Shown in pieces: positions 6,407 to 60,037 of a stretch of DNA of 64,000 nucleotides (within the stretch, counting starts at the first letter, position 1; every line of letters begins with the position of its first letter). The stretch spans positions 12,998 through 76,997 of the forward strand of contig JBBRYW010000002.1 of the NCBI GenBank assembly GCA_038237235.1. The letters are read 5' to 3'. Under the pieces are notes generated by a model, which was given only the letters and a program-made list of their open reading frames with translations, was not told the origin of the DNA and did no database searches. Origin of the DNA: Gaiellales bacterium. GTDB lineage: Bacteria > Actinomycetota > Thermoleophilia > Gaiellales > Gaiellaceae. Both the position numbers and the translations under genes were made by a program.

Positions 6407-6431
6407 GCGCGAGCGGCAAGGGCAGACCGCA

Positions 6432-12459: not shown

Positions 12460-12530
12460 AGGCGCGGACCGGAGTCGAACCGGTGTGCGAGGCTTTGCAG
12501 GCCTCTGCCTAACCACTCGGCCACCGCGCC
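12460..12530 (-). tRNA. tRNA-Cys (anticodon GCA)
   Basis: The reverse complement is GGCGCGG-TG-GCC..GGC-A-GAGGC-CTGCAAA-GCCTC-GCAC-ACCGG-TTCGACT-CCGGT-CCGCGCC-T. The cloverleaf is complete and CCA is not encoded. Confidence 0.9.
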
Positions 12531-15327: not shown

Positions 15328-15645
15328 GAAAGTCCCTGCAAATTTGCTTGTTGTGTTGTTGTGCTGTCGCTTCAGACGCCAGATCGGAGCCGACCACACC
15401 GACTGTCGATCGAGGCAACCCGAAGACGATTTCACAGCCGAATTCGCCCGAGCCGACGGCGACCTCGAAGCGCAACGTGGTCCCGTTGTCGACGCAGGCA
15501 CCACCTCCGCCACACACCTGCCACACGCCCTCTGCCGCGCGGCAGCCCGGTCAGAGCCAGTTCGGTTCGGCAGCGAAACGCCGGCTGTTGCCGGTAGCCA
15601 GCACCACGGCGCTGGGACAAGTCTTGGGACAAAGTTGCGTTTCTA

Positions 15646-15663
15646 GTTCTCAAAATTGAGAAC
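15646..15663 (-). terminator. 7-bp hairpin just beyond the leftmost tRNA-Gly 3' repeat
   Basis: gttctca-aaat-tgagaac is AT-rich relative to its surroundings. It is positioned as a terminator downstream of the (-)-strand tRNA 3' end. Confidence 0.35.
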
Positions 15664-15689
15664 TGAACAGCTTGGTTTGCAGGTCTTTT

Positions 15690-15733
15690 AGAGCGGATGA
15701 AGGGACTCGAACCCTCAACCTTCTGCATGGCAA
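15690..15733 (-). repeat. att-type direct repeat 1: copy of the 3' 44 bp of tRNA-Gly(GCC), one mismatch
   Basis: agagcggatgaagggactcgaaccctcAaccttctgcatggcaa. It is identical to 41542-41585 and 59962-60005 except for A at 15717. Confidence 0.85.
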
Positions 15734-41273: not shown

Positions 41274-41541
41274 ACGTACCCCCGCAACGAAGCTCGGTCA
41301 AGTCCCAACCCGACCGAATCGTCCATCGCGCGCTGATTCGCGTCTTTTCGTGAGACGAACACTGACCCAGGCCGAGGAGAAGACCCCCCAAGTGGGCGTC
41401 TACGCGCTACCGGGGTCCGGGTCTCACGAATTCTTCGCAACGCCGCAGGGACGCGACCCCGCCACAGGCCGCATCTTGGGACAAAGTTGCATTTCTCGTT
41501 CTCAGATCTGCGTACTCAACATCAGTTTTTGCAGGCCTTTT

Positions 41542-41585
41542 AGAGCGGATGAAGGGACTCGAACCCTCGACCTTCTGCATGGCAA
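41542..41585 (-). repeat. att-type direct repeat 2: exact copy of the 3' 44 bp of tRNA-Gly(GCC)
   Basis: agagcggatgaagggactcgaaccctcgaccttctgcatggcaa. It is identical to 59962-60005. Confidence 0.9.
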
Positions 41586-41725: not shown

Positions 41726-41816
41726 GAGTTGTCGCCTGTTTAGCTAACAGGCAACACTCTTTCGCACCTTGGTGCATATGCGTCTCGGCGCTGGTCGGTG
41801 CCGGATTGGAGCCAGC

Positions 41817-44681
41817 GTGCTGAGCGTGGCGAAGCTGACGGTGGGCCAGGAGACCTACTACGAGCAGCAGGTCGCGGCTGGGCTCGACGACTACTACGCT
41901 GGCCGCGGCGAGTCGCCGGGGATCTGGTCCGGCCGCGGGGCCGAGCTACTCGGCCTTGGGGGCGTGGTCGAGGAGGGCGAGCTCGGCACGCTTCTTCGCG
42001 GCGTCGACCCAGCGAGCGCGGCGCGGCTGCGGACTCCGGTGCGCGAGCGGACGATCACCGTTCGCGTGCTCGACACTGAGAGCGGCGAGTGGCGGGAGGA
42101 GACGAAGCGGCTCGCGCCGGTCTCGGGTTTCGACCTCGTCTTCTCGTGCCCGAAGAGCGTCAGCATCCTGCACGCGCTCACCGACGACGAGCGTGTGCGC
42201 CAGGAGATCAGCGAGGCGCACGAGGCGTCGTGGCAGGCGGCGCTCGGCTATCTCGAGCGCGAGGCCTGCGTCGTGCGTCGCGACCGCGGCGGCGCGATCC
42301 GGGAGCACGGCGGCGGCTTCGTCGCGGCCGCCTTCCGGCATCGCACGAGTCGGGCACAGGATCCCCACCTACACACGCACGCGATCGTGGCGAACGTGGC
42401 CCGCTCCGCCGACGGCGAGTGGCGCGCGCTCGACGGCGAGGCGATCCTGCGGACGTACCGGCTCACCGCCGGCTACCTCTACGAGGCGAACCTCCGCCAC
42501 GAGCTCGCGCAGCGGCTCGGTGTCGGCTGGACGCAGCCGGTCAAGGGCATGGCCGAGCTCGAGGGCGTCCCCGAGGAGGCGATGCGCGCCTTCTCGACTC
42601 GGCGGCAATCGCTGCTCGAGCACATGGAAGCGCGCGGGTCGGAAGGCTTCGCGGCTAGCCGAGTCGCCGCGCTCGCAACGCGGGAGGCGAAGGAGCAGGT
42701 TGATCTTCCTCGGCTGCGGGAGGAGTGGACGGCGCGAGCCGCCGAGCACGGGCTCGGCCGTCGCGAGTTGCGCGCACTCGCGGGTCCACCCCGCCCCGAT
42801 CGAGCGATCGACCTCGGCGACGCCGCGGAGCAACTACTCGGCCGCGACGGCCTCACAGCGAAGCAGACGACGTTCACGATGCCAGAGCTCGTCTACGCCG
42901 TCGCCGGCGCGGTCCGCCACGGCGCCAGCACCGAAGATGTGCTCGGGACGGCGGAGAAGCTGTCGGCGTTCCCGAGTGTCGAGCTGGTCGAGCCCGAGTG
43001 TGCGCCAGGACGGCCCGCTCGATTCACGACGCGCGAGTTGCTCGAGGTCGAACGGGAGGCTCTCGAGATCGCACTGGCCGGTCGCAACGTTGATGCACCT
43101 CGCGTAGCTCCGGGCGGCGTCCCGATCGAACAACGCGCCGAACTCACGGACGAGCAGCGGATCCTCGTGCGCGAGGCGTGTGTGAGCCGCGACCGTATCG
43201 TCTGCGCCGTCGGTGTCGCGGGCTCAGGAAAGACAACCGCCCTTCGCGTCCTCGGCGCGGCCTACCGCCAGGCAGGCATCCCAGTCCTCGGCGCCGCGCC
43301 CAGTGGCCGGGCCGCCGACGAGCTCGCAACCGCGACGGGCATCCGCAGCACGACCATGCACCGGCTCCTCGTGGACGCGCAGCATCAAGGCGGTCTGCCG
43401 CGCGGCTGCGTCGTGGTCGTCGACGAGGCGGGCATGGCCGAGACGCGCGTTCTCACGCCGCTTCTCCGGCTGATCGACGATGTCGGAGGGAAGGCGATCC
43501 TGGTCGGCGACCCCGGCCAACTTCCGGCCGTCGGCGCCGGCGGACTCTTCCCCGCCCTCTGTGACCGCCTCGGCGTCATCGGCCTGTCGGAGAATCACCG
43601 CCAGCACGACCCGGTGGAGCGCGACGCGCTCGCGCAGCTCCGCTCCGGCGACCCCAAGCCGTACCTCGCCCATGCTGTGTCGAGCGGACGGCTGCACCTC
43701 GAGGACGACGCGACCTCGGCCAAGAGCCGACTCCTCCAAGACTGGTGGCGGGCGGCGGAGCGCGACCTTGACGGAACGGTCATGCTCGCCTACCGGCGCG
43801 ACGATGTCCGCGAGCTCAACGACGCCGCCCGCGACCTGATGCTGAGCGCCGGTCGGCTCGGACCCGAGGCGCTCCAGTTCGACCGCCGCGAGTTCCGTGC
43901 CGGTGATCGCGTCATCTGCCGGCAAAACGATGCGCGCTGCGACGTCCGGAACGGCACGCGCGGGACGGTTGTCGATCTGGATGTCGCGGGCGAGACCCTC
44001 CTGCTTCGGACGGACGCCGGCGCCCTAAGCCACATCAGTTCCCTGTACGCAGCCGAGCACCTTAACCACGCCTACGCCCTCACGGGCCATGCTTCCCAGG
44101 GCGCGACCGTCGACCGCGCCTTCGTGCTCCTCAGCGACGAGGGCGTGCTCCGCGAGTGGGGCTACGTCGCCTGTTCCCGCGCACGTGAGGAGACGCGCCT
44201 CTACATCGCCAGCGACGCGCACGAACGAGAGACGCACGGACGCGACCTCGAGCCGACGCACGCTTCGGTACGGATCGCCCGTAGGCTGACCGCACCGTCG
44301 TGCGAGCAGCTCGCGCTCGAAAGCGCAGCGGTTCCTTCGCCTAGCGATGCCAGCCTCCTTGCCCTCGCTCACCGCCGGGAACAGCTGGAACGCCCGCGTT
44401 GCCGAGCCGAAGAACGCCTCACCGAGGCCGAGACGAAGCTCGAGCAGCTCGGCTGGCGTGGCCGCCGGAGACATGGCGCCGAACTTCGAGCCGAGATCGG
44501 CTTTCAACGCGCGGCGTTCAGCATCGCGGCCAAGCAACTCGCGGAGATCCCGTCCGTCCCTCTACCGCCGACCTCGCGACGAGCCGATCAGGCCCCCGAC
44601 CGGGCCACGTCTCGTGAGCATGCATTCGTGAACCATCACACGCCGGCGCCGGAACCGCGCGGACTCGACCTAGGGCTCTGA
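41817..44681 (+). CDS. MobF/TrwC-type conjugative relaxase fused to RecD-like helicase
   Basis: The GTG at 41817 follows GGAG. Motifs are LSVAKLTVGQETYYEQQVAAGLDDYY, FDLVFSCPKSVS, HRTSRAQDPHLHTHAIVAN (3-His), Walker A GVAGSGKTT and VVVDEAGM. Confidence 0.9.
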   Translation: MLSVAKLTVGQETYYEQQVAAGLDDYYAGRGESPGIWSGRGAELLGLGGVVEEGELGTLLRGVDPASAARLRTPVRERTITVRVLDTESGEWREETKRLAPVSGFDLVFSCPKSVSILHALTDDERVRQEISEAHEASWQAALGYLEREACVVRRDRGGAIREHGGGFVAAAFRHRTSRAQDPHLHTHAIVANVARSADGEWRALDGEAILRTYRLTAGYLYEANLRHELAQRLGVGWTQPVKGMAELEGVPEEAMRAFSTRRQSLLEHMEARGSEGFAASRVAALATREAKEQVDLPRLREEWTARAAEHGLGRRELRALAGPPRPDRAIDLGDAAEQLLGRDGLTAKQTTFTMPELVYAVAGAVRHGASTEDVLGTAEKLSAFPSVELVEPECAPGRPARFTTRELLEVEREALEIALAGRNVDAPRVAPGGVPIEQRAELTDEQRILVREACVSRDRIVCAVGVAGSGKTTALRVLGAAYRQAGIPVLGAAPSGRAADELATATGIRSTTMHRLLVDAQHQGGLPRGCVVVVDEAGMAETRVLTPLLRLIDDVGGKAILVGDPGQLPAVGAGGLFPALCDRLGVIGLSENHRQHDPVERDALAQLRSGDPKPYLAHAVSSGRLHLEDDATSAKSRLLQDWWRAAERDLDGTVMLAYRRDDVRELNDAARDLMLSAGRLGPEALQFDRREFRAGDRVICRQNDARCDVRNGTRGTVVDLDVAGETLLLRTDAGALSHISSLYAAEHLNHAYALTGHASQGATVDRAFVLLSDEGVLREWGYVACSRAREETRLYIASDAHERETHGRDLEPTHASVRIARRLTAPSCEQLALESAAVPSPSDASLLALAHRREQLERPRCRAEERLTEAETKLEQLGWRGRRRHGAELRAEIGFQRAAFSIAAKQLAEIPSVPLPPTSRRADQAPDRATSREHAFVNHHTPAPEPRGLDLGL

Positions 44682-44730
44682 GGCGCCGCGCAATATTCAG
44701 CGACCTCTGTTCACGAGCCAAACCGGCCTG

Positions 44731-45474
44731 TCAATCGTGGAGGATCGATAAGCAGAACTCCCCGCGCTCGAGATTGAGGTCGCGTGTTGGCAGCCGCTGC
44801 TCCGCGCGCCAATCATCGAATGCACGGGCTGGGTAGAGCGCTGCGAGCAAGAGCTGGAGCTGGGCGAGCCCGGTCGTGTCACCGAAGACGGCGACGTAGG
44901 TCTCCTCGAGCGTCTCGACGACGTGGACGACGAGCCCGACGGGCTGCGTCGTGCCGATCACACGCCGCTCCTCGACGCCGGGCTGGGCACGGGCGGCAGC
45001 GAGAAGATCCTGAGTCTCGACGCTGACGACAGCGGCGAACCGTTCGGCCCGGTCGTCGCGGAGCGCCTCATAGTCGGCGGCCGTAGGACGCACGAGCCCC
45101 GCCCCGATCAGCTGCGGAAATCGTTCGAAGGCGTCGGAGGGCTCCCCGGAGCGGTGGCGCGCGTAGGCACAGAGCCAAACGACGTTCTCCTCGGCGTCGA
45201 ACCAGGTCGCGCCGCGGTGATGGTGGCCGTAGCGCAGAACCCATAGCGTGTCGTCGCCGGCGGCGGGGCCGACCGTGTCCGTCCCGTGAACGACGGTGTG
45301 GCGCTGGTTGCGGAGCGCCCTGACCATCTCGTGGCGCAGGAGCGTGTCGAAGTCCGTATCGCGGCCGAACCCTAGATCGTCGACGACGCACCGCTCGGTG
45401 ACGCGCAACTCGTGCCCGGCCCGGCAGACGAACGATCGCAGATGGCATTCCCCGATGTTGCGGTTGCCGGGCAA
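44731..45474 (-). CDS. Hypothetical protein, second gene of the unit divergent from the Ubl operon
   Basis: 247-aa ORF with normal composition (WVLRYGHHHRGATWFDAEENVVWLCAYARHRSGEPSDAFERF...). It lies 25 nt downstream of the wHTH gene. I recognise no motif. Confidence 0.55.
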   Translation of the reverse strand: MPGNRNIGECHLRSFVCRAGHELRVTERCVVDDLGFGRDTDFDTLLRHEMVRALRNQRHTVVHGTDTVGPAAGDDTLWVLRYGHHHRGATWFDAEENVVWLCAYARHRSGEPSDAFERFPQLIGAGLVRPTAADYEALRDDRAERFAAVVSVETQDLLAAARAQPGVEERRVIGTTQPVGLVVHVVETLEETYVAVFGDTTGLAQLQLLLAALYPARAFDDWRAEQRLPTRDLNLERGEFCLSILHD

Positions 45475-45499
45475 TCGGACCCGACTGTAGCGGCGGGTG

Positions 45500-46369
45500 C
45501 TACTTACTCAGGCGGGCGGCGCGGGCCTCGGCCTGCTTCTTCGAGTACCGCTTCGAGAACCGCGCCAACTCGTCCTTGTCGCCGCTCTTGATCGCAGCGC
45601 GCAGGGCGTCGTGGTCGGCGGCGAGCTGATCCTTGTGGGTGTCGAGGAACTCGTGCCACGCCGAGGCGAGAAGCGCTCCCGGCTCGCTTCCCTGCATGCC
45701 GGCGAGTGCCTTGACGTCGCTCCGCAGAGGCTGCGGCAGCGAGAAGTCGCCGCTCGTCGGGTCAGCGGGATCCTCTTTCGGCGTCCCGGCCCGCGGGTCG
45801 ACGAAAAGGAGTCCCTCGCGGCGCGGTCGCTCGACGCGGTGGACGAAGCCCTTCTGGAAGACGTTGACGAGGCGGTTTGTCGCGGCGCTCGGCTCGAGCC
45901 CGGTCGCCTGCGCAAAGTTCGCGACGGTCACGCGGCCGCCGAGGCGCCGAAGAACGTCGAGCGTCTCATGCTCTGTCGGCGTCAGCGAGCCGAGTGGCTC
46001 CGCCTCTGACAACCGTTCGACGGAGGGAGCGACGAAGAGGGCGAGGTCGTAGGTCTGGGCGAGCGAGCGAAGTACCTCGCGCATCCCCTCGTCCTCGGTG
46101 CAGAGAACGACCGCCAGCGGCCCGAGCGTGCGGCCGCGCGCCGCTTGGCCGAGCGGAACGACGAGCTCTAGAAGGACTGACGCCGAGGGGAACCTTCCCT
46201 CGAGGTTCAAGGCCAGCACCGTTGGCTCTCTGACGCCACTTGGCAACAGCCACTTGCGGAAGCGCGCCATGAGTCCCCGATCGAGGAGAGGCCCGGCCGT
46301 GCCGTCCGGTGTGAACGGAGCACGCAGCTCGAGGAGTGGAAGGCGATGAGAGTGGAGCAGGGAGTTCAT
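45500..46369 (-). CDS. Winged-helix DNA-binding protein with unknown N-terminal domain and helical C-terminus
   Basis: ATG at 46369 (MNSLLHSHRLP...). The central MarR-like wHTH is LTPTEHETLDVLRRLGGRVTVANFAQATGLEPSAATNRLVNVFQKGFVHRVERP. It is divergent from the Ubl gene. Confidence 0.65.
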   Translation of the reverse strand: MNSLLHSHRLPLLELRAPFTPDGTAGPLLDRGLMARFRKWLLPSGVREPTVLALNLEGRFPSASVLLELVVPLGQAARGRTLGPLAVVLCTEDEGMREVLRSLAQTYDLALFVAPSVERLSEAEPLGSLTPTEHETLDVLRRLGGRVTVANFAQATGLEPSAATNRLVNVFQKGFVHRVERPRREGLLFVDPRAGTPKEDPADPTSGDFSLPQPLRSDVKALAGMQGSEPGALLASAWHEFLDTHKDQLAADHDALRAAIKSGDKDELARFSKRYSKKQAEARAARLSK

Positions 46370-46379
46370 AGAGAGGCCA

Positions 46380-46489
46380 TATCGGCAGAAGCGGAGCCTG
46401 ACACAAATAGCAGCCGAGTGTGTGGTGCCATCGGTTACTTCTGCTATATTCACTGAGTTCAGTGAAGTTACTGTGGAACTCTGCCGATA
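46380..46489. promoter_or_regulatory. Divergent promoter/operator region with nested symmetry
   Basis: TATCGGCAGA (46380-46389) and its exact complement TCTGCCGATA (46480-46489) lie 100 bp apart. The perfect palindrome TTCACTGA-GT-TCAGTGAA is at 46449-46466, flanked by GTTACT direct repeats. The region is AT-richer than its surroundings. Confidence 0.45.
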
Positions 46490-46501
46490 AGGAGGAAGGA
46501 C

Positions 46502-46762
46502 ATGCCCCCGAAGCAGATCGAGATCGCAATCGTCGTCAACGGCCAGCCGACGGTCGTCCACGCCAACCCCAACTCGCCCCTCAAGACGGTGATTCCGAAG
46601 GCGCTCGAGGCGACCGGGAATACCGGTCAACCGCCTGAGAACTGGGAGCTCCGCGACGCAAATGGCACGCTCCTGGACACTTCGAAGAAGATCGGGAGCT
46701 TCAACTTCCCGGCCGGCATGCGTCTGCTCCTGAACCTGAAGGCCGGGGTGGGCGGCGCGTGA
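46502..46762 (+). CDS. Ubiquitin-like beta-grasp protein (multiubiquitin-type), C-terminus ...GVGGA
   Basis: 86 aa. AAGGAGGAAGGA lies before the ATG. The sequence is IEIAIVVNGQPTVVHANPNSPLKTVI...WELRDANGTLLD...GMRLLLNLKAGVGGA. The stop overlaps the next start. Confidence 0.75.
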   Translation: MPPKQIEIAIVVNGQPTVVHANPNSPLKTVIPKALEATGNTGQPPENWELRDANGTLLDTSKKIGSFNFPAGMRLLLNLKAGVGGA

Positions 46763-47379
46763 GCACGTCCCCGCAGCTCGCCGACCCCCAGGTTTCGCGC
46801 ACGAAGTTCGCCCGCGAAGTCGAGGAGTTCCGGCAGCTCGCCGGCGACTACTCTCGCCGCGGATGGCTACTGGTCGAAGCGGAGTTCCCGCGCATCTTCG
46901 TCATCATGGCCGCGCCGCAGCTCAAACCGTCGCCGATCGTCACCGGCCTTCTGCTGGACTACACCGACTATGACCTAAGGCCGCCCTCAGTCCAGCTCGC
47001 CGATCCGTTCAGCCGCGCGCCCTACAAAGCCGGCCAGCTCCCGACGAACCTGCTGCGCCAGGTCGAGACCGACGCGGTGCCGATCGGGCTGGCGCTTCCG
47101 CCCGGCTTCGCCGCGCCGCGGGTGATCCAGCAGCAGCCGCTCATGCAGAGCTATGGGCCTGAAGAGCTTCCGTTCCTGTGTATTGCCGGCGTCCGCGAGT
47201 ATCACGAACACCCCGCCCACTCCGGCGACCGCTGGGAGCTCCATCGCCGAGATGGCGCCGGCAGGCTCGTGCGCATCCTCGAAATCATCGACACCTACGG
47301 CGTCCGTCCGCTGAATGGCTACGGCGTCACCCTTGTCCCACAGGTGTCAGGACTGACACAAGGCGAGGTACCGGCGTGA
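46759..47379 (+). CDS. Prokaryotic E2-like (UBC-fold) conjugating enzyme
   Basis: 206 aa. The only cysteine lies in PFLCIAGVREYHEHPAHSGDRWELH. The gene is coupled by GTGA overlaps on both sides. Confidence 0.75.
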   Translation: MSTSPQLADPQVSRTKFAREVEEFRQLAGDYSRRGWLLVEAEFPRIFVIMAAPQLKPSPIVTGLLLDYTDYDLRPPSVQLADPFSRAPYKAGQLPTNLLRQVETDAVPIGLALPPGFAAPRVIQQQPLMQSYGPEELPFLCIAGVREYHEHPAHSGDRWELHRRDGAGRLVRILEIIDTYGVRPLNGYGVTLVPQVSGLTQGEVPA

Positions 47380-47849
47380 CGCTGGAGGGGGTCGAGAAGT
47401 TCTCCGTCCCCGAAGACGTCGTCGCGAACACCGAGCGCAGCCTGCGCCGAGCCGGGCGCGATGGCTACGAGCTATTCGTCCTCTGGAGCGGCATGCACAA
47501 GAACTCCTCGTTCCGGGTCAGCACGGCTCACGTGCCCGAACAGAGCTCCTACCGCTTGAAGGGCGGGCTCTGCGTCCGTGTCGAGGGCGAGGCGCTCCAC
47601 AAGCTGAACGTCTGGCTGTTCGAGAATGAGGAGACGCTCGGCGTGCAGGTACACGCCCACCCGACCGACGCCTACCACTCCAACACCGACGATACCTACC
47701 CGATCGTCACCATCCTCGGCGGGCTCTCTCTCGTCGTCCCCGACTTCTGCCACGCCGGGCTCTTCGCCCGCAGCGCCGCCTACCGGCTCTCGCGCGACGG
47801 CTGGCACGAGGACTCAAGACCCGTGACCCAGCTGATCGAGGTCGTCTGA
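47376..47849 (+). CDS. JAB/MPN (JAMM) metalloprotease
   Basis: 157 aa with YELFVLWSG (Glu) and VQVHAHPTDAYHSNTD (HxH...S..D). The GTG at 47376 overlaps the E2 stop. Confidence 0.8.
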   Translation: MTLEGVEKFSVPEDVVANTERSLRRAGRDGYELFVLWSGMHKNSSFRVSTAHVPEQSSYRLKGGLCVRVEGEALHKLNVWLFENEETLGVQVHAHPTDAYHSNTDDTYPIVTILGGLSLVVPDFCHAGLFARSAAYRLSRDGWHEDSRPVTQLIEVV

Positions 47850-49339
47850 TGCTCGCCGACTACTACCTGCGCAACGCCGCCGCCGCCGCCCAAGTCCTCT
47901 CGGGCTTCGACGAGGAGCTGTTTCGCTCGCGGCTCGAATCGACGCCGGTCGGGATCTCGCTCGGCGCCGACGTGGAATCAGGCGAGGGACGCGCGGTCGC
48001 CGACCTCCTCGTCCGCCTCAGCGCTCGGCTCTACCCCACGCTGGCCCTCATCGGTGAGCCAGCCACGGTAGCCCCGCTCGCCGAACTCGCTAAGGCGATC
48101 AACCCAATGATCGACCTCGTCGACGAGGCGACCATTGGCGTCGCCGTCAGCGACGGCAACGCCTTTCAAACGACGATCTACGCTGGCTCAGATGGCTGGG
48201 ACGGGTTCGTGAGCGCGACAGAGCCGCAGAGTCTCGGCGCGAGCGACAACCCGTTCGGCGCCGGGGTCGCGGCCTGCCTCGCCGCCGCCGGCCTCTTCCG
48301 CGCTGTCTTCCTGCCCGACTGGAAGGAGCGCGTCGACGAGCGCGCGCGCTTCTCGGCCCTCGCAGGCGACGCTGTCGAAGCCGCGACCAACTCTCCCTCC
48401 ACACCTTGGCGCCTTGAAGAAGATGCCGTATTGGTCGGCGCCGGCGCTGTCGGCCAAGGCGCCCTCTGGGCTCTCTCCCGGGCGCCCTTGAGCGGGCGGC
48501 TGCATGTCGTCGACATGGAGGTCCTCGAGCTCAGCAACCTGCAGCGCTACGTCCTTACCGAGCGCACCGACGAGATTCGCGACAAGGTCGAGATCGCGGC
48601 CACGCTCGACTCCACCCTCGAACTCGTCCCGCACGCGGAAGACCTGGCCGCTTTCCTTGCGAAAAACGGCTACCGCTGGAGCGCGATGCTCCTCGGGCTC
48701 GACAGCGCCCGCGACCGTGTCAGCGCGCAAGCGTCTCTGCCGCGCTTCGTCGCCAACGCCTGGACGCAACCTGGCGATCTCGGCGTCGCCGCTCACTCGC
48801 GCTTCGGCGGCGAGGGGGCCTGCGTCGCCTGCTTCTATCTTCCGGAGGCGCGCCTCAAGAACGAGGACGAGCTCGTCGCCGAGACGCTCGGCGTGTCGCA
48901 GTTCCTCATGCAAGTGCGTACGTTACTGGCAACCGGTGAGCCAGTCGACCGCGGATTCTTGGAGGCGGTTGCCCAGGCAGTCAGCCAACCTTTGGAGGCG
49001 CTCTTGCCCTTCGAGGGCAGGACAGTCCGCGAGCTCTACGTCGAGGGCTTTTGCGGCGGCGCAGTGATCCCGATCGGCAGGGCCGGCAAGCTCCACCAGG
49101 TTGCGCAGGAAGTGCACGTCCCGCTCGCGCACCAGTCTGCCCTCGCCGGCGTCCTCCTCGCCGCCGCGCTCGTCCGCCACGCTATCGCGGGCGAGGAGGA
49201 GCTGACGCACGTCACGCGGCTCGACGTCTTAAAGCCGGTCGGTCAGTTCCTGCGACAACCGCTACGCGCGCGGCGCGATGGACGCTGCATTTGCGACGAC
49301 GCTGACTTCGTCACGGCTTACGCGGCGAAGTACGACTGA
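47849..49339 (+). CDS. E1-like ThiF/MoeB-family adenylating enzyme
   Basis: 496 aa with VLVGAGAVGQGALWAL, HVVDMEVLELSNLQRY and paired Cys motifs GACVACFY and DGRCICDD. The ATG overlaps the JAB stop (TGATG). Confidence 0.85.
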   Translation: MLADYYLRNAAAAAQVLSGFDEELFRSRLESTPVGISLGADVESGEGRAVADLLVRLSARLYPTLALIGEPATVAPLAELAKAINPMIDLVDEATIGVAVSDGNAFQTTIYAGSDGWDGFVSATEPQSLGASDNPFGAGVAACLAAAGLFRAVFLPDWKERVDERARFSALAGDAVEAATNSPSTPWRLEEDAVLVGAGAVGQGALWALSRAPLSGRLHVVDMEVLELSNLQRYVLTERTDEIRDKVEIAATLDSTLELVPHAEDLAAFLAKNGYRWSAMLLGLDSARDRVSAQASLPRFVANAWTQPGDLGVAAHSRFGGEGACVACFYLPEARLKNEDELVAETLGVSQFLMQVRTLLATGEPVDRGFLEAVAQAVSQPLEALLPFEGRTVRELYVEGFCGGAVIPIGRAGKLHQVAQEVHVPLAHQSALAGVLLAAALVRHAIAGEEELTHVTRLDVLKPVGQFLRQPLRARRDGRCICDDADFVTAYAAKYD

Positions 49340-49388: not shown

Positions 49389-49712
49389 ATGCAGATCTCG
49401 AAGCGGACCAGGTTCAAGTTCGGCGAGTTCGCCACCGCGTACGCCGTCTTACGCCAGATCGATCTCGTCTTCATGAGCGAGGATTTCGAACACGTCGTGG
49501 AGTGGCTAGACCTCGATTCCGGCATGCGCCGAAGCCTCGTATCTGGCTACCACGCCGCGATCGACTTCTCTGATCCGGTGCAGCTCGGACGGCTAATCCG
49601 CGTCTACGCGGATGCCATCACCTCCTGGGGCCGTGACGAGCACGGCGACCTGGTTCCAACCATGATCCGACCTGAGATCGGGCTGCCCGGGGGATTGTTC
49701 CGTTCGACTTAG
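49389..49712 (+). CDS. Hypothetical 107-aa protein downstream of the E1 gene
   Basis: The ORF starts 50 nt after the E1 stop in a lower-GC stretch. Its composition is protein-like (FEHVVEWLDLDSGMRRSLVSGYHAAIDFSDPVQLGRLIRVYADAITSW). I recognise no motif. Confidence 0.4.
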   Translation: MQISKRTRFKFGEFATAYAVLRQIDLVFMSEDFEHVVEWLDLDSGMRRSLVSGYHAAIDFSDPVQLGRLIRVYADAITSWGRDEHGDLVPTMIRPEIGLPGGLFRST

Positions 49713-49841: not shown

Positions 49842-50627
49842 CTATGCCTCGAACCGGCTGATCCGCTCGAGCAGCGCCTCGGGGTCGACGCCCGTCGGCA
49901 CCTCGACCTCGTCGACGATCCGGCCGTCGAGGATCCGAACGACCCGGTCGCAGCGGCTCGCGATCACCGGGTCGTGGGTGGCGACGACGACGGTCATCCC
50001 GTGCCGCTCGCGCAGGTCGAGCAGAAGCTGCATCAGCTCGAGCGCCGTCTGGGAGTCGACGTTGCCGGTCGGCTCGTCGGCGAGGAGCAGGATCGGGTCG
50101 TTGATCAGCGCGCGCGCGATCGCAACCCGCTGCTGCTGCCCGCCCGACATGCGAGAGGGAAGGGATGCCTCGCGCCCTTCGAGGCCGACCGCGGCGAGCA
50201 GCTCGCTCGCTCGCGCGAACTTGTCGAACTCGGTCTTGTAGGGCAGCAAGGGCGCCGCCACGTTGTCGAGCGCGGTCAGCACGGGCAGCAGGTGGAAGCG
50301 CTGAAAGACGAAGCCGATCCGGCGCCGGTAGGCGACCTGGCGCTGGCCGCTGAGCGCGGTGACCTCCTCGCCGGCGACCGTGATCCGTCCCTCGTCGACG
50401 ACGTCCATTGCGCCGACCACGTGCAAGAGCGTCGACTTCCCCGAGCCCGAAGGGCCGGTGATCGCAACCACCTTGCCGGGCTCGACCACGAGGCTGACGC
50501 CGTCGAGCGCCGTGATCGTCGCCTCGCCGAGCCGGTAGCGCTTACCGACGTCCTCCAGCTCCACCCGCGCGCCGGGGGCTTGTTGGCCGTTCTTGCTGCT
50601 GCGAAGATCCATCTGGCCGGCTAGCAT
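49842..50627 (-). CDS. ABC transporter ATP-binding protein (MacB/LolD/FtsE-like)
   Basis: Walker A GPSGSGKST, signature MSGGQQQRVAIARAL and Walker B ILLADEPTGNVD. Confidence 0.9.
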   Translation of the reverse strand: MLAGQMDLRSSKNGQQAPGARVELEDVGKRYRLGEATITALDGVSLVVEPGKVVAITGPSGSGKSTLLHVVGAMDVVDEGRITVAGEEVTALSGQRQVAYRRRIGFVFQRFHLLPVLTALDNVAAPLLPYKTEFDKFARASELLAAVGLEGREASLPSRMSGGQQQRVAIARALINDPILLLADEPTGNVDSQTALELMQLLLDLRERHGMTVVVATHDPVIASRCDRVVRILDGRIVDEVEVPTGVDPEALLERISRFEA

Positions 50628-50668
50628 ACATTGCGGCCATGCAGAAGCTAACTCGCTAAGGAAATCGC

Positions 50669-51274
50669 GTGCCGATCCAACATGCAGTGCTCGCCCTGCT
50701 CGCCACGGGCCCCGCCCACGGCTACGGCCTGAAGGCGAGCTTCGAGGACTCGATCGGCCCGCAGTGGGGCGAGCTCAACATCGGCCACCTCTACCAGGTG
50801 CTCGAGCGCCTGATCCGCGACGAGCTCGTGACGAAGCGCGTCGTCGCGCAGTCGGATCGGCCGGACAAGAACGTCTACCGCCTGACCGAGGCCGGCCGCG
50901 CCGAGCTCGAGCGCTGGCTGGAGACGCCGTTCGTGCGCCAGGGCGGCTACCGAGACGACTTCTTCCTCAAGTTGTTCGCGGCCGCCCGACTCGGCGAGGA
51001 GGAGCTCAGGGGCGTAATCCGCGTCCAGCGCCAGGCTTACATGGGGGAGCTGTCGGCGCTCGCCGAGCTCCGGCTCGAGCACCGCGAGGAGCCGCTCGTC
51101 CGCCTCCTGATCGAGGCGGCGGCCAAGCACGCTGAGGCGAACCTGCAGGTCGTGGAGCTGGCGGAGGTGGCGGCGGCCGAGCTGGTGGCCTCGCAGAGGG
51201 CGCTTCGGGTCGAGGAAGGCTCCGAAGACGAGCTCAGGCCCGAGGCAGCCGGCGAGCGCCACCAGCGAACCTAG
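50669..51274 (+). CDS. PadR-family transcriptional regulator
   Basis: IQHAVLALLATGPAHGYGLKASFEDSIGPQWGELNIGHLYQVLERLIRDELV. It is divergent from the ABC ATPase gene. Confidence 0.85.
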   Translation: MPIQHAVLALLATGPAHGYGLKASFEDSIGPQWGELNIGHLYQVLERLIRDELVTKRVVAQSDRPDKNVYRLTEAGRAELERWLETPFVRQGGYRDDFFLKLFAAARLGEEELRGVIRVQRQAYMGELSALAELRLEHREEPLVRLLIEAAAKHAEANLQVVELAEVAAAELVASQRALRVEEGSEDELRPEAAGERHQRT

Positions 51275-51313
51275 ATTGCCTCTTACATCGTCGCAAGGTA
51301 TGCTTCACTAATC

Positions 51314-51826
51314 ATGGGCCGCGCTCGCACAGTGACCGCGATCATCGTTGCCAGCTGCCTGGTCGTTGCGGCCGACGCAACCGCGACAGTGCGGCTGAAC
51401 AAGGGGATCGGGCGAGTCAACCTCGGCATGACCTCGAGTCAACTGATTCGTACGTTCGGCAAGCCGCTGGGCATTCGCACTGGCGGCCTCTCGCCGGTCG
51501 CCAGACGCTTCTCCACCGATCGGACCTACGTCGAGTACGAGTACTTCTCGAAGAACGGCTACACGGTCGGGCTTGCGAGGCGGAGCGGCAAGATGCGCGT
51601 GGTCTTGGTCGCCGTCTACATCAGCGGGCAGCGCACGCCTCAGGGGATCGGCGTGGGCTCCTTGGCGGGCGACGTCCGCGTCAAGTATCCGAGCGTGCAC
51701 TGCGGACTCCTCGACGAGGTGAGCCAGTCTTGCGTCCTGCCGAGCCGCGCCAAGGCGGAGACGGTCTTCGTCGTGGACACGCTCAGGTCGCGCGTGAGCG
51801 CGGTCGCGGTGCGCGCGCGCACGTGA
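51314..51826 (+). CDS. Secreted hypothetical protein
   Basis: 170 aa with a signal-like N-terminus (TAIIVASCLVVAADATA). It lies between padR and the permease gene. Confidence 0.5.
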   Translation: MGRARTVTAIIVASCLVVAADATATVRLNKGIGRVNLGMTSSQLIRTFGKPLGIRTGGLSPVARRFSTDRTYVEYEYFSKNGYTVGLARRSGKMRVVLVAVYISGQRTPQGIGVGSLAGDVRVKYPSVHCGLLDEVSQSCVLPSRAKAETVFVVDTLRSRVSAVAVRART

Positions 51827-51842
51827 GCTGTGCCTCGCGGGC

Positions 51843-58572: not shown

Positions 58573-58779
58573 ATGACGACCTTGCCGACCTTTCTCACCG
58601 CCGATGAGCTCGCAGCGATCCTGCGCTGCCAGCCCGAGAAGGTCTACCGACTCGCCGCTCACGGAGAGCTTCCCTCCTACAAAGTTCAGGGTCGGCGACT
58701 GTTCGACCACGACGAAGTCGCGCGGTGGCTCGAGGGGCGTCGCGCCGGCGTGCGCTTCGGGGCCCGCGGAGCTGCCTGA
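58573..58779 (+). CDS. xis: Excisionase-family (MerR-like HTH) DNA-binding protein
   Basis: LTADELAAILRCQPEKVYRLAAHGELPSYKVQGRRLFDHDEVARWL. It lies immediately upstream of the integrase. Confidence 0.75.
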   Translation: MTTLPTFLTADELAAILRCQPEKVYRLAAHGELPSYKVQGRRLFDHDEVARWLEGRRAGVRFGARGAA

Positions 58780-58789
58780 GGGGAAGGCT

Positions 58790-59902
58790 ATGGCGTCGAT
58801 CCGCTCCTATCGGACCGCAGGTGGTGACCGCCGCTACTCCGTCCGCTACCGCGACCAGGCCGGGAGTAACCGCTCCCAGACGTTCTCGCTCCACAAGGAC
58901 GCGCAGGCGTTCAAGCTCGATGTCGAGCGCCGCCATCAGGCCGGCCTCCTCTACCAGGCGCCGCCCGAACGCTTCGAGGATGTCGCGCAGGCGTGGCTCG
59001 AGCGGTTCGTGATCGGCGCTGCCGGCCGTGTTCGCCCCCGCCCGAAGACGATCCGCGTCGCCGAGGACTGTCTGCGCTACCTCTCGCCGCTCAACGACCT
59101 CGCGATCGAGCGCATTCGCCGGCCGGTGGTCGAAGATCTCCTCGCGAGCATCGCGACCCATGCGCCGCGCCGCGCGGAGATGACGCTCACGCTGCTCAAG
59201 CGGATCCTCAAGGCAAGCGAGGAGCGCGGCCAGCAGGTCGACCGGACTGTGTACGGGACGCGCATCGCACGGGCGGAGGAGCGCGAGCCGCGCTTCCTCA
59301 CCTGGGACGAGGTGCTCGAGCTCCAGTCCTGGATGCCGGAGTACGTCTCTCGGATCGTCCCACTCGCCGTCCTGACGATGCTGCGCCGCGGCGAGATCCT
59401 CGGCCTTCGAGACGTCGACGTCGACCTCTCGAGCGGCTCGATCTCCGCTTTCTCGCAGCGCCAGGATGGCAAGCGCGTCCAGATGAAGACGCGCGCGGGA
59501 CGGCGAACAGTCGACGTCGGACCGGTCGCCGTCAACCTCCTGCGCGAGCAGCTACTCGCCCGGACGCCGACCGCCGAGGGCTACCTCTTCCCCGCTCCCG
59601 CGGGCGCGGCCTTCGACGGCGACAACTTCATGTCGCGCGTCTTCAAGCCGGCCGCCCGCCACGCCGGTATGCCCGAGCTCACCTTTCACGACCTCCGCCA
59701 CACGGGCGCCTCGCTGATGATCGCCGCGAGCTGTCACGTCAAGGTGATCGCGGAGCGGATGGGTCACTCGGACGGTGGGACGCTTGTCCTCAGACGGTAT
59801 GGACACCTCTACAAGGGCGCAGGCCGACAGGCGGCGATTGCGCTGGAATCGCAGGTTTTCGCCGGAATTGAAAAATTCCGCCGTACCACCCACGTACCAT
59901 GA
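58790..59902 (+). CDS. int: Tyrosine-type site-specific integrase
   Basis: The ATG at 58790 follows GAGGGGAAGG. The N-terminal SAM-like domain is YSVRYRDQAGSNRSQTF. The catalytic region is MLRRGEILGL...HDLRHTGASLMI...MGHSDGGTLVLRRYGHLY. It ends 60 nt from the tRNA. Confidence 0.9.
   Translation: MASIRSYRTAGGDRRYSVRYRDQAGSNRSQTFSLHKDAQAFKLDVERRHQAGLLYQAPPERFEDVAQAWLERFVIGAAGRVRPRPKTIRVAEDCLRYLSPLNDLAIERIRRPVVEDLLASIATHAPRRAEMTLTLLKRILKASEERGQQVDRTVYGTRIARAEEREPRFLTWDEVLELQSWMPEYVSRIVPLAVLTMLRRGEILGLRDVDVDLSSGSISAFSQRQDGKRVQMKTRAGRRTVDVGPVAVNLLREQLLARTPTAEGYLFPAPAGAAFDGDNFMSRVFKPAARHAGMPELTFHDLRHTGASLMIAASCHVKVIAERMGHSDGGTLVLRRYGHLYKGAGRQAAIALESQVFAGIEKFRRTTHVP
59883..59901 (+). repeat. Terminal 19-bp repeat of island 2 (right copy)
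   Basis: gtaccacccacgtaccatg inside the last codons of int. Its partner is at 41707-41725. Confidence 0.6.
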
Positions 59903-59961: not shown

Positions 59962-60005
59962 AGAGCGGATGAAGGGACTCGAACCCTCGACCTTCTGCAT
60001 GGCAA
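59962..60005 (-). repeat. att-type direct repeat 3 (within the intact tRNA-Gly)
   Basis: The same 44 bp as at 41542-41585. It spans the acceptor 3' strand, the T-arm and the 3' half of the anticodon arm. Confidence 0.9.
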
Positions 60006-60037
60006 GCAGACGCTCTAGCCAACTGAGCTACATCCGC
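59964..60037 (-). tRNA. tRNA-Gly (anticodon GCC)
   Basis: The reverse complement is GCGGATG-TA-GCTC-AGTTGGCTA-GAGC-G-TCTGC-TTGCCAT-GCAGA-AGGTC-GAGGG-TTCGAGT-CCCTT-CATCCGC-T. The cloverleaf is complete. Confidence 0.9.

What the first reader, a model, noticed from the sequence alone, without database searches (positions are those of the whole stretch)
46502..49339. Complete ubiquitin-like conjugation operon (Ubl-E2-JAB-E1) carried by a tRNA-Gly integrative element
Four + strand genes are translationally coupled: GTGA overlaps at 46759 and 47376, TGATG at 47849.

- **Ubl:** an 86-aa protein with the size and alternating pattern of a beta-grasp domain (IEIAIVVNGQPTVVH...MRLLLNLKAGVGGA). It ends Gly-Gly-Ala, so one residue must be removed to expose a GG terminus.
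- **E2-like:** a 206-aa protein whose only cysteine sits in PFLCIAGVREYHEHPAH, the kind of motif seen in prokaryotic UBC-fold E2-like proteins.
- **JAB:** a 157-aa JAMM protease (E...HAHPTDAYHSNTD).
- **E1-like:** a 496-aa ThiF-family enzyme (GAGAVG, LSNLQRY, CVAC plus CIC zinc-site-like cysteines).

The content and order match the bilABCD-type antiphage ubiquitination operons. They also match the Ubl/E2/E1/JAB neighbourhoods predicted earlier by comparative genomics.

What seems little explored here is the setting. The host is a GC-rich actinobacterium, the Ubl has a single domain, and the operon rides on a mobile element. Three further linked genes (44731-46369 and 49389-49712) could supply regulation, a target or an effector.
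Basis: partly seen in the sequence, partly recalled or inferred. Interest (0 to 1): 0.9.

Follow-up and report, generated by a model that had tools for sequence, protein, structure and literature searches.

The report
Type II Bil ubiquitin-like conjugation cassette
This is a genuine bacterial ubiquitin-like protein-tagging operon of an already characterised kind (Type II BilABCD), carried on a small integrative element, and it travels with a dedicated repressor and a toxin-like partner gene that I did not find described in the literature I could search.

Summary
The four overlapping + strand genes exist exactly as described. All four are clear homologues of the crystallised Ensifer aridi Type II BilABCD proteins: E1 3e-95, E2 6e-45, DUB 8e-34, Ubl 1e-26. 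Every catalytic residue is conserved. The operon lies in an 18.4-kb element bounded by exact 44-nt repeats of the tRNA-Gly 3' end, with a tyrosine integrase and a TrwC relaxase.

The features it called little explored are not:
- A single beta-grasp Ubl is the majority, crystallised form.
- Actinobacterial examples are in the original catalogue.
- Rhizobial members sit on conjugative plasmids.

What I did not find described is the conserved unit, a six-gene cassette (44723-49339).
- **Repressor:** a divergent regulator (alpha/beta domain plus MarR-like winged helix) accompanies the operon in 33 of 54 related loci. A palindromic operator overlaps the bil promoter.
- **Partner:** here the regulator carries an antitoxin-like tail and is followed by a 247-aa protein with a RelE-like predicted fold. 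Sister clades swap in other tails with YafQ or GNAT-like partners.
- **Not linked:** the downstream 107-aa gene is not conserved with the cassette.

The biological role of Type II Bil remains unknown.

The parts
41542..41585 (.). Distal att copy: an exact 44-nt repeat of the tRNA-Gly 3' part. It is the left boundary of the 18.4-kb element.
41769..44681 (+). TrwC-type relaxase fused to a RecD-like helicase (970 aa). It belongs to the element's mobilisation machinery, not to the Bil cassette.
   Evidence: Pfam TrwC 3.3e-78 and AAA_30 2.9e-50. It is not conserved next to Bil elsewhere: 4 of 54 loci, with weak matches.
44731..45474 (-). 247-aa partner protein with no Pfam family. Predicted layout: a RelE-like domain (about residues 20-125), a long helix, then a C-terminal alpha/beta domain. 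It is a candidate toxin or effector.
   Evidence: AlphaFold2 pLDDT 91.4. The best Foldseek PDB hits are RelE, HigB2 and YoeB, with E 0.03-0.3, probability up to 0.99 and TM 0.65. It is adjacent to the regulator in 10 of 54 loci and in L056 and L058. Neither Pfam nor PDB gives a sequence match.
45500..46369 (-). 289-aa divergent regulator. It has an N-terminal alpha/beta domain (12-126), a MarR-like winged helix (129-190) and a C-terminal antitoxin-like helical tail (about 211-288).
   Evidence: MarR or MarR_2 is hit by 20 of 28 family members. AlphaFold2 pLDDT 83.7. Foldseek finds MarR-family structures. It is conserved divergently upstream of the Ubl gene in 33 of 54 loci. The tail is homologous to a free-standing 86-aa protein that precedes a stand-alone homologue of the 247-aa protein.
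46444..46466 (+). A -10-like TATATT followed by the palindromic operator TTCACTGAGTTCAGTGAA (46449-46466). The operator ends 36 nt before the Ubl start codon.
   Evidence: The palindrome is unique in the window, against 0.05 expected. The same TTCAC-N8-GTGAA lies at the same place in L001 (with a compensatory change), L008, L023 and L026. A related CCCAC-N8-GTGGG occurs in the short-form clade. Overall, 12 of 34 loci with the regulator carry such a palindrome, against 0 of 16 without it.
46502..46762 (+). BilA: an 86-aa single beta-grasp Ubl (DUF2604). The reactive glycine is Gly85, capped by Ala86.
   Evidence: Pfam DUF2604 3.2e-28. PDB 8TYX/8TYZ Ubl(BilA) 1e-26, aligned through to the C-terminal ...KAGVxGA.
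46759..47379 (+). BilB: a CEHH-type E2 of 206 aa. The catalytic residue is Cys141, with Glu147, His149 and His154.
   Evidence: Pfam Metal_CEHH 2e-54. PDB 8TYZ_C E2(BilB) 5.7e-45. Residue mapping.
47376..47849 (+). BilC: a JAMM/JAB peptidase of 157 aa (E32, H93, H95, S102, D105).
   Evidence: PDB 8TYX_B DUB(BilC) 7.8e-34. PADLOC BilC 2.6e-8. Pfam Prok-JAB reaches only 14 bits, below its cut-off.
47849..49339 (+). BilD: an E1 of 496 aa. It has an inactive adenylation domain (the Pfam Prok-E2_C region, about 44-154) and an active ThiF-type domain (GAGAVG 197-202, R233). The CYS-domain cysteine is Cys402. Cysteine pairs C325/C328 and C480/C482 are conserved.
   Evidence: PDB 8TYZ_A E1(BilD) 3e-95 over residues 2-495. 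Pfam hits. Invariant residues.
58604..59902 (+). Tyrosine recombinase (integrase) of the element, 432 aa.
   Evidence: Pfam Phage_integrase 2.9e-15. It ends 60 nt before the tRNA-Gly gene.
59962..60037 (-). tRNA-Gly(GCC) gene (59963-60037). Its 3' 44 nt (59962-60005) form the proximal att copy.

Best explanation
**What it is.** Genes 46502-49339 are a Type II BilABCD (CEHH/6C) ubiquitin-like conjugation operon.

**How the enzymes work.** This is shown for the E. aridi orthologues and inferred here from conserved residues.
1. The JAMM peptidase BilC removes Ala86 from the 86-aa beta-grasp protein BilA, exposing Gly85.
2. The E1 BilD adenylates Gly85 at its ThiF-type active domain (R233) and takes it as a thioester on Cys402.
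3. BilA passes to Cys141 of the CEHH-type E2 BilB. BilB ligates it to lysines of target proteins.
4. BilC can also remove the tag.

**The wider unit.** This part is inferred from comparative genomics. The operon belongs to a six-gene cassette (44723-49339).
- A divergently transcribed protein (45500-46369) has an alpha/beta domain plus a MarR-like winged helix. It most likely represses the bil promoter by binding, as a dimer, the palindrome TTCACTGAGTTCAGTGAA next to the -10 element.
- Its C-terminal tail is an antitoxin-like module. It is paired with the next gene (44731-45474), a protein with a RelE-like predicted fold.

**The carrier.** The cassette is cargo of an 18.4-kb integrase- and relaxase-bearing element inserted in tRNA-Gly. 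The host is a member of the Thermoleophilia; the closest named relatives are Gaiellaceae and Solirubrobacteraceae.

**Likely role.** Defence against phages or other mobile DNA is the most likely role. It rests on analogy with Type I Bil and on defence-island neighbours, and has not been shown for any Type II Bil.
For: **Identity of the four enzymes**
- phmmer against the PDB hits only the E. aridi Type II Bil chains strongly: E1 3e-95, E2 5.7e-45, Ubl 1e-26, DUB 7.8e-34.
- Pfam gives DUF2604, Metal_CEHH, and Prok-E2_C plus ThiF, all above their cut-offs.

**Catalytic residues map one to one**
- E1 C417 to C402 and R246 to R233.
- E2 C138/E144/H146/H151 to C141/E147/H149/H154.
- DUB E33 and D106 to E32 and D105.
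- Ubl G97-A98 to G85-A86.
- The published biochemistry and structures are in 10.1101/2023.09.26.559546.

**Operon and cassette**
- The Ubl, E2 and JAB genes accompany the E1 in the same order in 50-51 of 54 loci.
- Nucleotide synteny with three relatives (88%, 71% and 65% identity) runs from 44723-44743 to 49300-49339, that is, the six genes.

**Regulator**
- It is present in 33 of 54 loci from several phyla.
- It has a MarR-like winged helix.
- The operator palindrome is conserved in position, with a compensatory change in L001. A distinct half-site goes with the short-form clade.
- Such a palindrome occurs in 12 of 34 loci with the regulator and 0 of 16 without it. The background is 17 hits per megabase, 12 of which are these sites.

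**Tail and partner**
- The helical tail occurs in all 10 loci that carry the 247-aa protein. One further locus, L019, has the tail but no detected partner.
- The tail is homologous to a free 86-aa protein that precedes a stand-alone homologue of the 247-aa protein: BLASTP 1e-16, hhalign 98.5%.
- Foldseek finds RelE-family folds for the 247-aa protein.
- Sister clades carry other tails, followed by a YafQ toxin (96 bits) or a GNAT-like protein.

**Context**
- Element boundaries.
- Defence neighbours elsewhere: type I restriction-modification, and Mrr plus an integrase.
Against: - No experiment exists for this locus.
- No antiphage phenotype and no physiological target is known for any Type II Bil (PMC11601603).
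- The RelE-like fold rests on weak Foldseek E-values (0.03 or worse) from a predicted model. There is no sequence support.
- In two loci (L005, L009) the homologue of the 247-aa protein is convergent with the regulator, not co-directional. That is unusual for a toxin-antitoxin operon.
- The regulator's N-terminal domain has no identified relative, so the signal it senses is unknown.
- Only 12 of 34 loci have a perfect palindrome of the tested class. The rest have imperfect or different ones.
- No recognised defence genes lie next to the cassette in this window. Its neighbours are an ABC transporter, PadR and an FtsX-type permease.
Confidence: 0.85

Rival explanations
1. The cassette serves the mobile element, not host antiviral immunity. 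It might tag or neutralise proteins of competing plasmids or ICEs, tag host factors during transfer, or act with the toxin-like pair as a stabilisation (addiction) module.
For: - Type II Bil sits on 12 rhizobial plasmids, 9 of them predicted conjugative.
- Here it lies beside a relaxase inside an integrative element.
- A VapC/StbC pair lies divergently upstream on pNGR234a and on a S. numidicum plasmid.
- No phage phenotype is reported for Type II Bil.
Against: - Other members neighbour restriction-modification, Mrr, or TIR and caspase-like genes.
- The published catalogue reports defence-island association.
- The cassette's flanks differ between close relatives, so it is not tied to one element type.
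Confidence: 0.25
2. The 247-aa protein is not a toxin. It is a working part of the conjugation pathway, for example a substrate, a target-recognition adaptor (E3-like), or a sensor. The regulator's tail merely tethers it.
For: - It has no sequence similarity to any toxin family.
- It carries an extra C-terminal alpha/beta domain and a long helix that RelE toxins lack.
- No E3 is known for Bil systems.
Against: - A stand-alone two-gene version (small tail-like protein plus homologue) exists without any Bil genes.
- A phage-like contig has a regulator homologue plus the N-domain of the 247-aa protein, without Bil.
- The equivalent position in sister clades holds a YafQ toxin or a GNAT-like protein.
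- About two thirds of regulator-bearing loci lack it altogether.
Confidence: 0.25
3. It is a Type I (ISG15-like) Bil system of the kind shown to tag phage tail fibres.
For: - The gene order is the same.
- PADLOC's BilB, BilC and BilD models give weak hits.
Against: - The Ubl has one beta-grasp domain and matches DUF2604, not the two-domain form. PADLOC's Bil models give no hit for it.
- The E2 keeps the full CEHH motif, whose Glu and His are reported as not conserved in Type I.
- Matches to the Type II structures are tens of orders of magnitude stronger.
Confidence: 0.03
4. It is a ThiS/MoaD-type sulfur-carrier pathway (ThiF/MoeB adenylyltransferase with a beta-grasp carrier) and does no protein conjugation.
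For: NCBIfam gives only weak, partial ThiF and MoeB hits to the nucleotide-binding loop of the E1.
Against: - All those hits fall far below their cut-offs and cover about 60 residues.
- An E2 with a catalytic Cys and a JAMM peptidase are present.
- The orthologous system makes lysine isopeptide conjugates.
Confidence: 0.01

Closest known systems
Type II BilABCD (CEHH/6C) operon of Ensifer aridi TW10 (PDB 8TYX, 8TYY, 8TYZ, 8TZ0; Chambers et al., 10.1101/2023.09.26.559546)
   Same: - Same four proteins in the same order.
- Single beta-grasp Ubl ending Gly-Ala.
- CEHH E2, JAMM DUB, and an E1 with an inactive plus an active adenylation domain and a CYS-domain cysteine.
- All catalytic residues are conserved.
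   Different: - Sequence is well diverged: E2 41% identical, rhizobial BilD homologues 37-38%.
- The host is a Thermoleophilia actinobacterium, not a rhizobium.
- Here the operon comes with a dedicated divergent winged-helix regulator and a toxin-like partner. The rhizobial plasmid loci I inspected lack both.
Type I Bil (Collimonas sp. OK412; Hor et al., 10.1101/2023.09.04.556158)
   Same: Same Ubl-E2-JAB-E1 logic and gene order. This branch has a demonstrated antiphage role, through tagging of the phage central tail fibre.
   Different: - Type I has a two-domain, ISG15-like Ubl.
- Its E2 lacks the Glu and His of the CEHH motif.
- Its clades are separate for all four proteins.
- PADLOC's Bil models detect this locus only weakly.
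Bub operons (Type I/II; 10.1101/2024.11.21.623953)
   Same: Bacterial E1, E2, Ubl and peptidase operons, often with damage-responsive regulators.
   Different: According to the paper's abstract, Bub enzymes work through oxyester (serine) intermediates and use a serine protease; the companion paper names the extra bubE gene DUF6527. Here the catalytic cysteines are present and the peptidase is a JAMM enzyme.
Regulators of defence operons: CapH/CapP and CapW/BrxR
   Same: A separate transcription factor next to a conjugation or defence operon. CapH/CapP accompanies 15% of catalogued Type II Bil operons.
   Different: No homology was detected. The regulator here combines an uncharacterised alpha/beta domain with a MarR-like winged helix, sometimes with an antitoxin-like tail. 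Its layout resembles Csa3 only loosely.
Type II toxin-antitoxin modules of the RelE superfamily (RelBE, DinJ-YafQ, HigBA)
   Same: - A DNA-binding protein whose C-terminal tail pairs with an adjacent RelE-fold protein.
- A bona fide YafQ toxin occupies the equivalent position in Bryobacterales and Terriglobia loci.
   Different: - The 'antitoxin' is fused to the repressor of a neighbouring operon.
- The 247-aa protein is 2.5 times the size of RelE and carries an extra domain.
- Toxicity and neutralisation are untested.
- Similarity of the YafQ-linked tail to DinJ was tested and not found.

Membership tests
Type II BilABCD (CEHH/6C) | Four genes in the order Ubl, E2, JAMM peptidase, E1 | tested here: met
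   Genes at 46502-49339 have overlapping stops and starts. The order is the same in 50-51 of 54 related loci.
Type II BilABCD (CEHH/6C) | E2 of the CEHH family with a catalytic Cys and the adjacent His | tested here: met
   Pfam PF14455 scores 184 bits against a cut-off of 25. 8TYZ_C matches at 5.7e-45. The residues are C141, E147, H149 and H154.
Type II BilABCD (CEHH/6C) | Multidomain E1: inactive adenylation domain, active ThiF-type domain with the catalytic Arg, and a CYS-domain cysteine | tested here: met
   8TYZ_A matches at 3e-95 over residues 2-495. R233 aligns with R246 and C402 with C417. Pfam finds PF14459 and PF00899.
Type II BilABCD (CEHH/6C) | JAMM deubiquitinase with Glu, His-x-His and Asp active-site residues | tested here: met
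   8TYX_B matches at 7.8e-34. E32 aligns with position 33 and D105 with D106. The HAH motif is at 93-95.
Type II BilABCD (CEHH/6C) | Beta-grasp Ubl with a conserved C-terminal Gly followed by 0-9 residues | tested here: met
   Pfam DUF2604 at 3.2e-28. 8TYX_A matches at 1e-26 and aligns to the last residue. Gly85 is followed by Ala86.
Type II BilABCD (CEHH/6C) | Groups with Type II, not Type I, sequences | tested here: met
   Scores against the Type II structures are far stronger than against PADLOC's Bil models: BilD 2e-12, BilB 5e-6, BilC 3e-8, and no hit for the Ubl. No explicit tree was built.
Type II BilABCD (CEHH/6C) | Forms thioester intermediates and lysine isopeptide conjugates, and the DUB trims the Ubl | not testable with these tools
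   Shown only for the E. aridi proteins.
Type I Bil (ISG15-like) | Ubl with two beta-grasp domains | tested here: not met
   The 86-aa protein is a single DUF2604 domain.
Bub operons | DUF6527 serine protease, and serine (oxyester) chemistry in the E1 and E2 | tested here: not met
   No such gene is present in the cassette. The catalytic cysteines are conserved.
Type II toxin-antitoxin module (regulator tail plus the 247-aa protein) | Adjacent genes that also occur as an autonomous two-gene unit | tested here: met
   L057 has an 86-aa tail homologue immediately upstream of a homologue of the 247-aa protein, with no Bil genes.
Type II toxin-antitoxin module (regulator tail plus the 247-aa protein) | The toxin belongs to a recognised toxin fold or family | tested here: inconclusive
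   Foldseek finds RelE, HigB2 and YoeB with E 0.03-0.3. Pfam, PDB and hhalign give no sequence match.
Type II toxin-antitoxin module (regulator tail plus the 247-aa protein) | The toxin arrests growth and the antitoxin neutralises it by direct binding | not testable with these tools
   No complex prediction or experiment was possible.
Integrative mobilisable element at a tRNA gene | Tyrosine integrase next to a tRNA 3' end, direct att repeats, and a relaxase | tested here: met
   No type IV secretion or FtsK-type translocase was recognised among the ORFs scanned, so self-transfer is not established.

The most novel reading that the evidence does not exclude
In this branch of Type II Bil, ubiquitin-like conjugation is wired to a toxin. 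One protein both represses the bil operon and, through its interchangeable C-terminal tail, holds a RelE-fold, YafQ or GNAT-type toxin in check. Loss, cleavage or Ubl-modification of that protein during infection or stress would then do two things at once: switch on the conjugation machinery and release the toxin. That would give the first handle on what Type II Bil systems do. It would also be a new way of coupling a defence operon to an abortive-infection effector.
Probability: 0.25. Interest if true: 0.7.

Novelty: new variant of a known kind. Interest (0 to 1): 0.4.

Why it matters
**The operon itself.** It adds one more member, from a poorly sampled actinobacterial class, to a family whose enzymology and structures are already solved.

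**The added value.** The companions suggest a way in, because the literature states that the targets and biological consequences of Type II Bil conjugation are unknown.
- A dedicated repressor with a recognisable operator gives an experimental switch.
- A partner whose identity swaps between clades (RelE-like fold, YafQ, GNAT-like) suggests a testable link between Ubl conjugation and growth arrest.

**Practical points.**
- PADLOC's current Bil models barely detect this branch.
- RefSeq still names BilD 'E2 ligase fold family C protein' and BilB 'putative metal-binding protein'.

Tried and rejected
- **Downstream 107-aa gene (49389-49712) as part of the system.** It has no homologue in 54 related loci and no Pfam hit, and synteny ends at the E1 stop.
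- **DinJ-like nature of the tail in the YafQ-linked regulators.** BLASTP against an E. coli DinJ sequence recalled from memory gave E = 35. phmmer of the tail against the PDB gave nothing.
- **Sequence-level link between the 247-aa protein and RelE/YafQ.** hhalign probability was 0.1%. PDB profile and Pfam scans found nothing.
- **Foldseek of the 247-aa model against viral structures.** Only uncharacterised, low-TM hits.
- **Identity of the regulator's N-terminal domain.**
  - Pfam and a PDB profile search gave no hit outside the winged helix.
  - Csa3 (CARF plus winged helix) appears only weakly: Foldseek probability 0.69, PADLOC and NCBIfam hits confined to the winged helix.
  - STAS-like or CARF-like folds are therefore not established.
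- **Bil E1 in IMG/VR viral contigs.** None found with the patterns used.
- **The sigma-70 consensus scan.** It did not call the bil promoter. The -10-like TATATT was read directly from the sequence and from its conservation.
- **A second integrase for the distal att-bounded segment.** None found.
- **Organism name of the window's own contig.** The protein collection gives none.

Full report
**Observation.** The four + strand ORFs are present at the stated coordinates.
- They are 46502-46762 (86 aa), 46759-47379 (206 aa), 47376-47849 (157 aa) and 47849-49339 (496 aa).
- The stated 4-nt, 4-nt and 1-nt overlaps are there, and a strong ribosome-binding site precedes the first gene.
- Third-position GC of 0.78-0.87 marks them as coding in this 68% GC window.
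- All quoted motifs are real. Cys141 is the only cysteine of the 206-aa protein. The JAMM motif is E32/H93/H95/S102/D105. The E1 has GAGAVG, LSNLQRY and two conserved cysteine pairs.

**Identity.** Pfam assigns the four proteins as follows.
- DUF2604: 98 bits.
- Metal_CEHH: 184 bits.
- Prok-JAB: 14 bits, below its cut-off.
- Prok-E2_C plus ThiF: 62 and 34 bits.

A search of all PDB sequences returns one system as the strong hit for each protein, the Ensifer aridi TW10 BilABCD proteins.
- E1(BilD) 3e-95 over the whole length.
- E2(BilB) 5.7e-45.
- Ubl(BilA) 1e-26.
- DUB(BilC) 7.8e-34.

That system is the founding Type II BilABCD operon, earlier called CEHH or 6C (10.1101/2023.09.26.559546). The paper shows four things.
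- The 'metal-binding CEHH protein' is the E2.
- The DUB removes the residue after the conserved glycine.
- E1 and E2 together make lysine isopeptide conjugates.

Every residue that paper mutated or highlighted is conserved here.
- E1: R233 and C402.
- E2: C141, E147, H149 and H154.
- DUB: E32 and D105.
- Ubl: Gly85 followed by Ala86.

PADLOC's Bil models hit weakly, between 5e-6 and 2e-12, and miss the Ubl. Membership in Type II Bil is therefore met on every sequence criterion. Type I Bil, Bub and sulfur-carrier pathways are excluded.

**What is not new.**
- In the published catalogues, 105 of 134 Type II Bil Ubls (78%) have a single beta-grasp domain (PMC11601603), and that is the crystallised form.
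- Supplementary Table 1 of the first paper already lists Rubrobacter, Geodermatophilus, Blastococcus and three Saccharothrix strains.
- tblastn against PLSDB finds BilD homologues on 12 rhizobial plasmids, 9 of them predicted conjugative. They include pNGR234a and R. etli p42a.
- The family is large. At least 1311 E1 homologues score E <= 1e-10.
- A pattern-seeded scan of one genome per species returned 54 loci. They come from Actinomycetota, Acidobacteriota, Chloroflexota, Pseudomonadota and other phyla.
- The closest named relatives are a Gaiellaceae MAG (88% E1 identity) and a Solirubrobacteraceae MAG (70%). The host is therefore most likely a member of the Thermoleophilia.

**Mobile element.**
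- The 44 nt at the 3' end of tRNA-Gly(GCC) (59962-60005) recur exactly at 41542-41585, and with one mismatch at 15690-15733.
- Between the two exact copies lie 18,376 bp. They hold a tyrosine integrase abutting the tRNA and a TrwC relaxase-helicase at the far end.
- The same interval holds the Bil cassette, a PadR / ABC ATPase / FtsX-permease group and several unassigned ORFs.
- I recognised no mating-pore or FtsK-type translocase. 'Integrative, probably mobilisable element' is as far as the evidence goes.

**The conserved unit is six genes.**
- I ran tblastn of the window's proteins against the 54 loci.
  - The Ubl, E2 and JAB genes occur in 50-51 loci.
  - The 289-aa upstream protein occurs in 33.
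  - The 247-aa protein occurs in 10.
  - The downstream 107-aa protein occurs in none.
  - The relaxase and integrase are essentially absent.
- Nucleotide synteny with the three closest loci runs from the stop of the 247-aa gene to the stop of the E1 gene (44723-49339), and the flanks are unrelated.
- Two more distant contigs that encode homologues of the 247-aa protein show the same six-gene layout. One lies next to a type I restriction-modification system. The other lies next to Mrr and an integrase.

**The 289-aa protein is most likely the bil repressor.**
- Family members hit MarR-type winged-helix models: 20 of 28 members, best E 1.7e-7.
- A confident AlphaFold2 model (pLDDT 83.7) shows three parts.
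  - An N-terminal alpha/beta domain (12-126).
  - A winged helix (about 129-190) that Foldseek matches to MarR proteins.
  - C-terminal helices (213-288).
- The 132-bp divergent intergenic region contains TATATT followed at once by the perfect palindrome TTCACTGAGTTCAGTGAA (46449-46466). It ends 36 nt before the Ubl start and is unique in the window.
- The same TTCAC-N8-GTGAA lies at the same place in four independent loci. In L001 both arms have changed so that the symmetry is preserved (TTCACGG...CCGTGAA).
- Loci whose regulator is the short, 191-200-aa form carry (T)TCCCAC-N8-GTGGGA(A) directly after a TATAAT-like hexamer.
- A perfect palindrome of this class occurs upstream of the Ubl in 12 of 34 loci with the regulator and in 0 of 16 without. 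Only 17 occur in 1 Mb of locus sequence, and 12 of those are these sites.
- The position, the symmetry and the co-variation with regulator clade are what a dimeric repressor's operator should show. Binding itself is inferred.
- I could not identify the N-terminal domain, which is presumably the sensor.

**The tail and the 247-aa protein look like an antitoxin-toxin pair.**
- The long-tailed form of the regulator is present in all 10 loci that carry the 247-aa protein. One further locus, L019, has the tail but no detected partner.
- One contig holds a homologue of the 247-aa protein with no Bil genes. It is preceded by an 86-aa protein that aligns to residues 211-286 of the regulator: 38% identity, BLASTP 1e-16, hhalign 98.5%. 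The tail is thus an independent module whose partner is the 247-aa family.
- The 247-aa protein matches no Pfam family or PDB sequence.
- Its model is confident (pLDDT 91.4).
- Its best PDB fold matches are RelE, HigB2 and YoeB: E 0.03-0.3, probability up to 0.99, TM 0.65 on the target. This is weak evidence taken alone.
- Context strengthens it.
  - In Bryobacterales and Terriglobia loci the regulator homologue has a different tail and is followed by a bona fide YafQ toxin (PF15738, 96 bits).
  - In two actinobacterial loci a third tail is followed by a GNAT-like protein, marginally above the Pfam cut-off.
  - Short-form regulators have no tail and no toxin-like neighbour.
- Tail class therefore tracks partner class, as expected for cognate antitoxin-toxin pairs grafted onto a common regulator.
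- Two loci have the partner in convergent orientation. This does not fit a simple operon.

**Mechanism and its status.**
- Shown elsewhere and inferred here by orthology: trimming of Ala86, adenylation, the two thioesters, lysine conjugation and deconjugation.
- Inferred here from comparative evidence: repression through the palindrome, and tail-partner pairing.
- Speculative: that loss or modification of the regulator both derepresses bil and frees a toxin.
- Unknown for the whole family: the targets and the physiological role.
- I found no mention of this regulator or of toxin-like partners in the searchable literature. Subscription-only papers are not covered by that search.

**Verdict.**
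- The four-gene operon is a new member of a known, structurally characterised kind, so the interest score of 0.9 is not warranted.
- The six-gene form is a variant that I did not find described.
- Its accessories are a repressor with a recognisable operator, an antitoxin-like tail and a RelE-fold partner.
- This variant gives concrete experiments on an open question, which justifies a moderate score.

Noticed in passing
window 15690-15733, 41542-41585, 59962-60005 (also 15622-15689 versus 41474-41541): There are three copies of the tRNA-Gly att core. A second att-bounded segment of 25.8 kb (15734-41541) therefore lies in tandem with the Bil element. It carries a pyridine-nucleotide disulfide oxidoreductase, a redoxin, ABC-2 transporter genes and DUF929, but no recognisable integrase. 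About 70 nt to the left of the two distal copies are 87% alike. This looks like accretion of an integrase-less island at the same site.
   Followed up: partly
L063 (IMG/VR contig IMGVR_UViG_3300046115_000122), 4893-7527: A phage-like contig has a terminase, a ParB-like gene, a DAM-like methylase plus GNAT gene, and a DNA ligase. It encodes a homologue of the Bil regulator (38% identity, tail included). This is followed by a 516-aa ORF whose N-terminus matches the 247-aa protein. No Bil genes lie within 5 kb. It could be a phage-borne toxin-antitoxin-like pair or a decoy repressor.
   Followed up: partly
L057 4443-5473: A stand-alone two-gene module: an 86-aa homologue of the regulator's tail plus a 246-aa homologue of the 247-aa protein. 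It lies near smpB, with no Bil genes on the 12 kb available.
   Followed up: yes
L029 6498-7532; L030, L032, L034; L023 3941-5248; L026 7252-8544: In other clades the Bil-linked regulator carries different C-terminal tails. It is followed by a YafQ-family toxin (Bryobacterales, Terriglobia) or by a GNAT-like protein (two Actinomycetota MAGs).
   Followed up: partly
L059 (pNGR234a) 2534-3210; L062 1483-2159: On two Sinorhizobium symbiosis plasmids, a VapC toxin / StbC antitoxin pair sits divergently upstream of the Type II Bil operon. That is the position the regulator and toxin-like pair occupy here. It may be coincidence or a recurring theme.
   Followed up: no
L060 (R. etli p42a) 6259-7617: A TIR-domain gene and a caspase-family gene lie directly downstream of the Type II Bil operon. 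This suggests a defence-island setting there.
   Followed up: no
window 47849-49339 and plasmid hits H1-H12: Annotation lag. RefSeq names BilD 'E2 ligase fold family C protein' and BilB 'putative metal-binding protein'. The Pfam Prok-E2_C region is in fact the E1 inactive adenylation domain. PADLOC 2.0 Bil models detect this branch only at E 5e-6 to 2e-12 and miss the Ubl.
   Followed up: yes
window 49842-54566: Other cargo of the element: an ABC ATPase (minus strand), a PadR-family regulator, a 170-aa unassigned protein and a 907-aa FtsX-type permease. This looks like a MacB-like export or resistance module. It is not conserved with the Bil cassette.
   Followed up: partly
window 8385-9048 (inside ORF 8206-9492): Five to six direct repeats with a period of 132-153 nt lie inside one ORF. 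They probably encode tandem repeats of a protein domain.
   Followed up: no
window 12459-12530: A tRNA-Cys(GCA) gene on the minus strand, unrelated to the finding.
   Followed up: no
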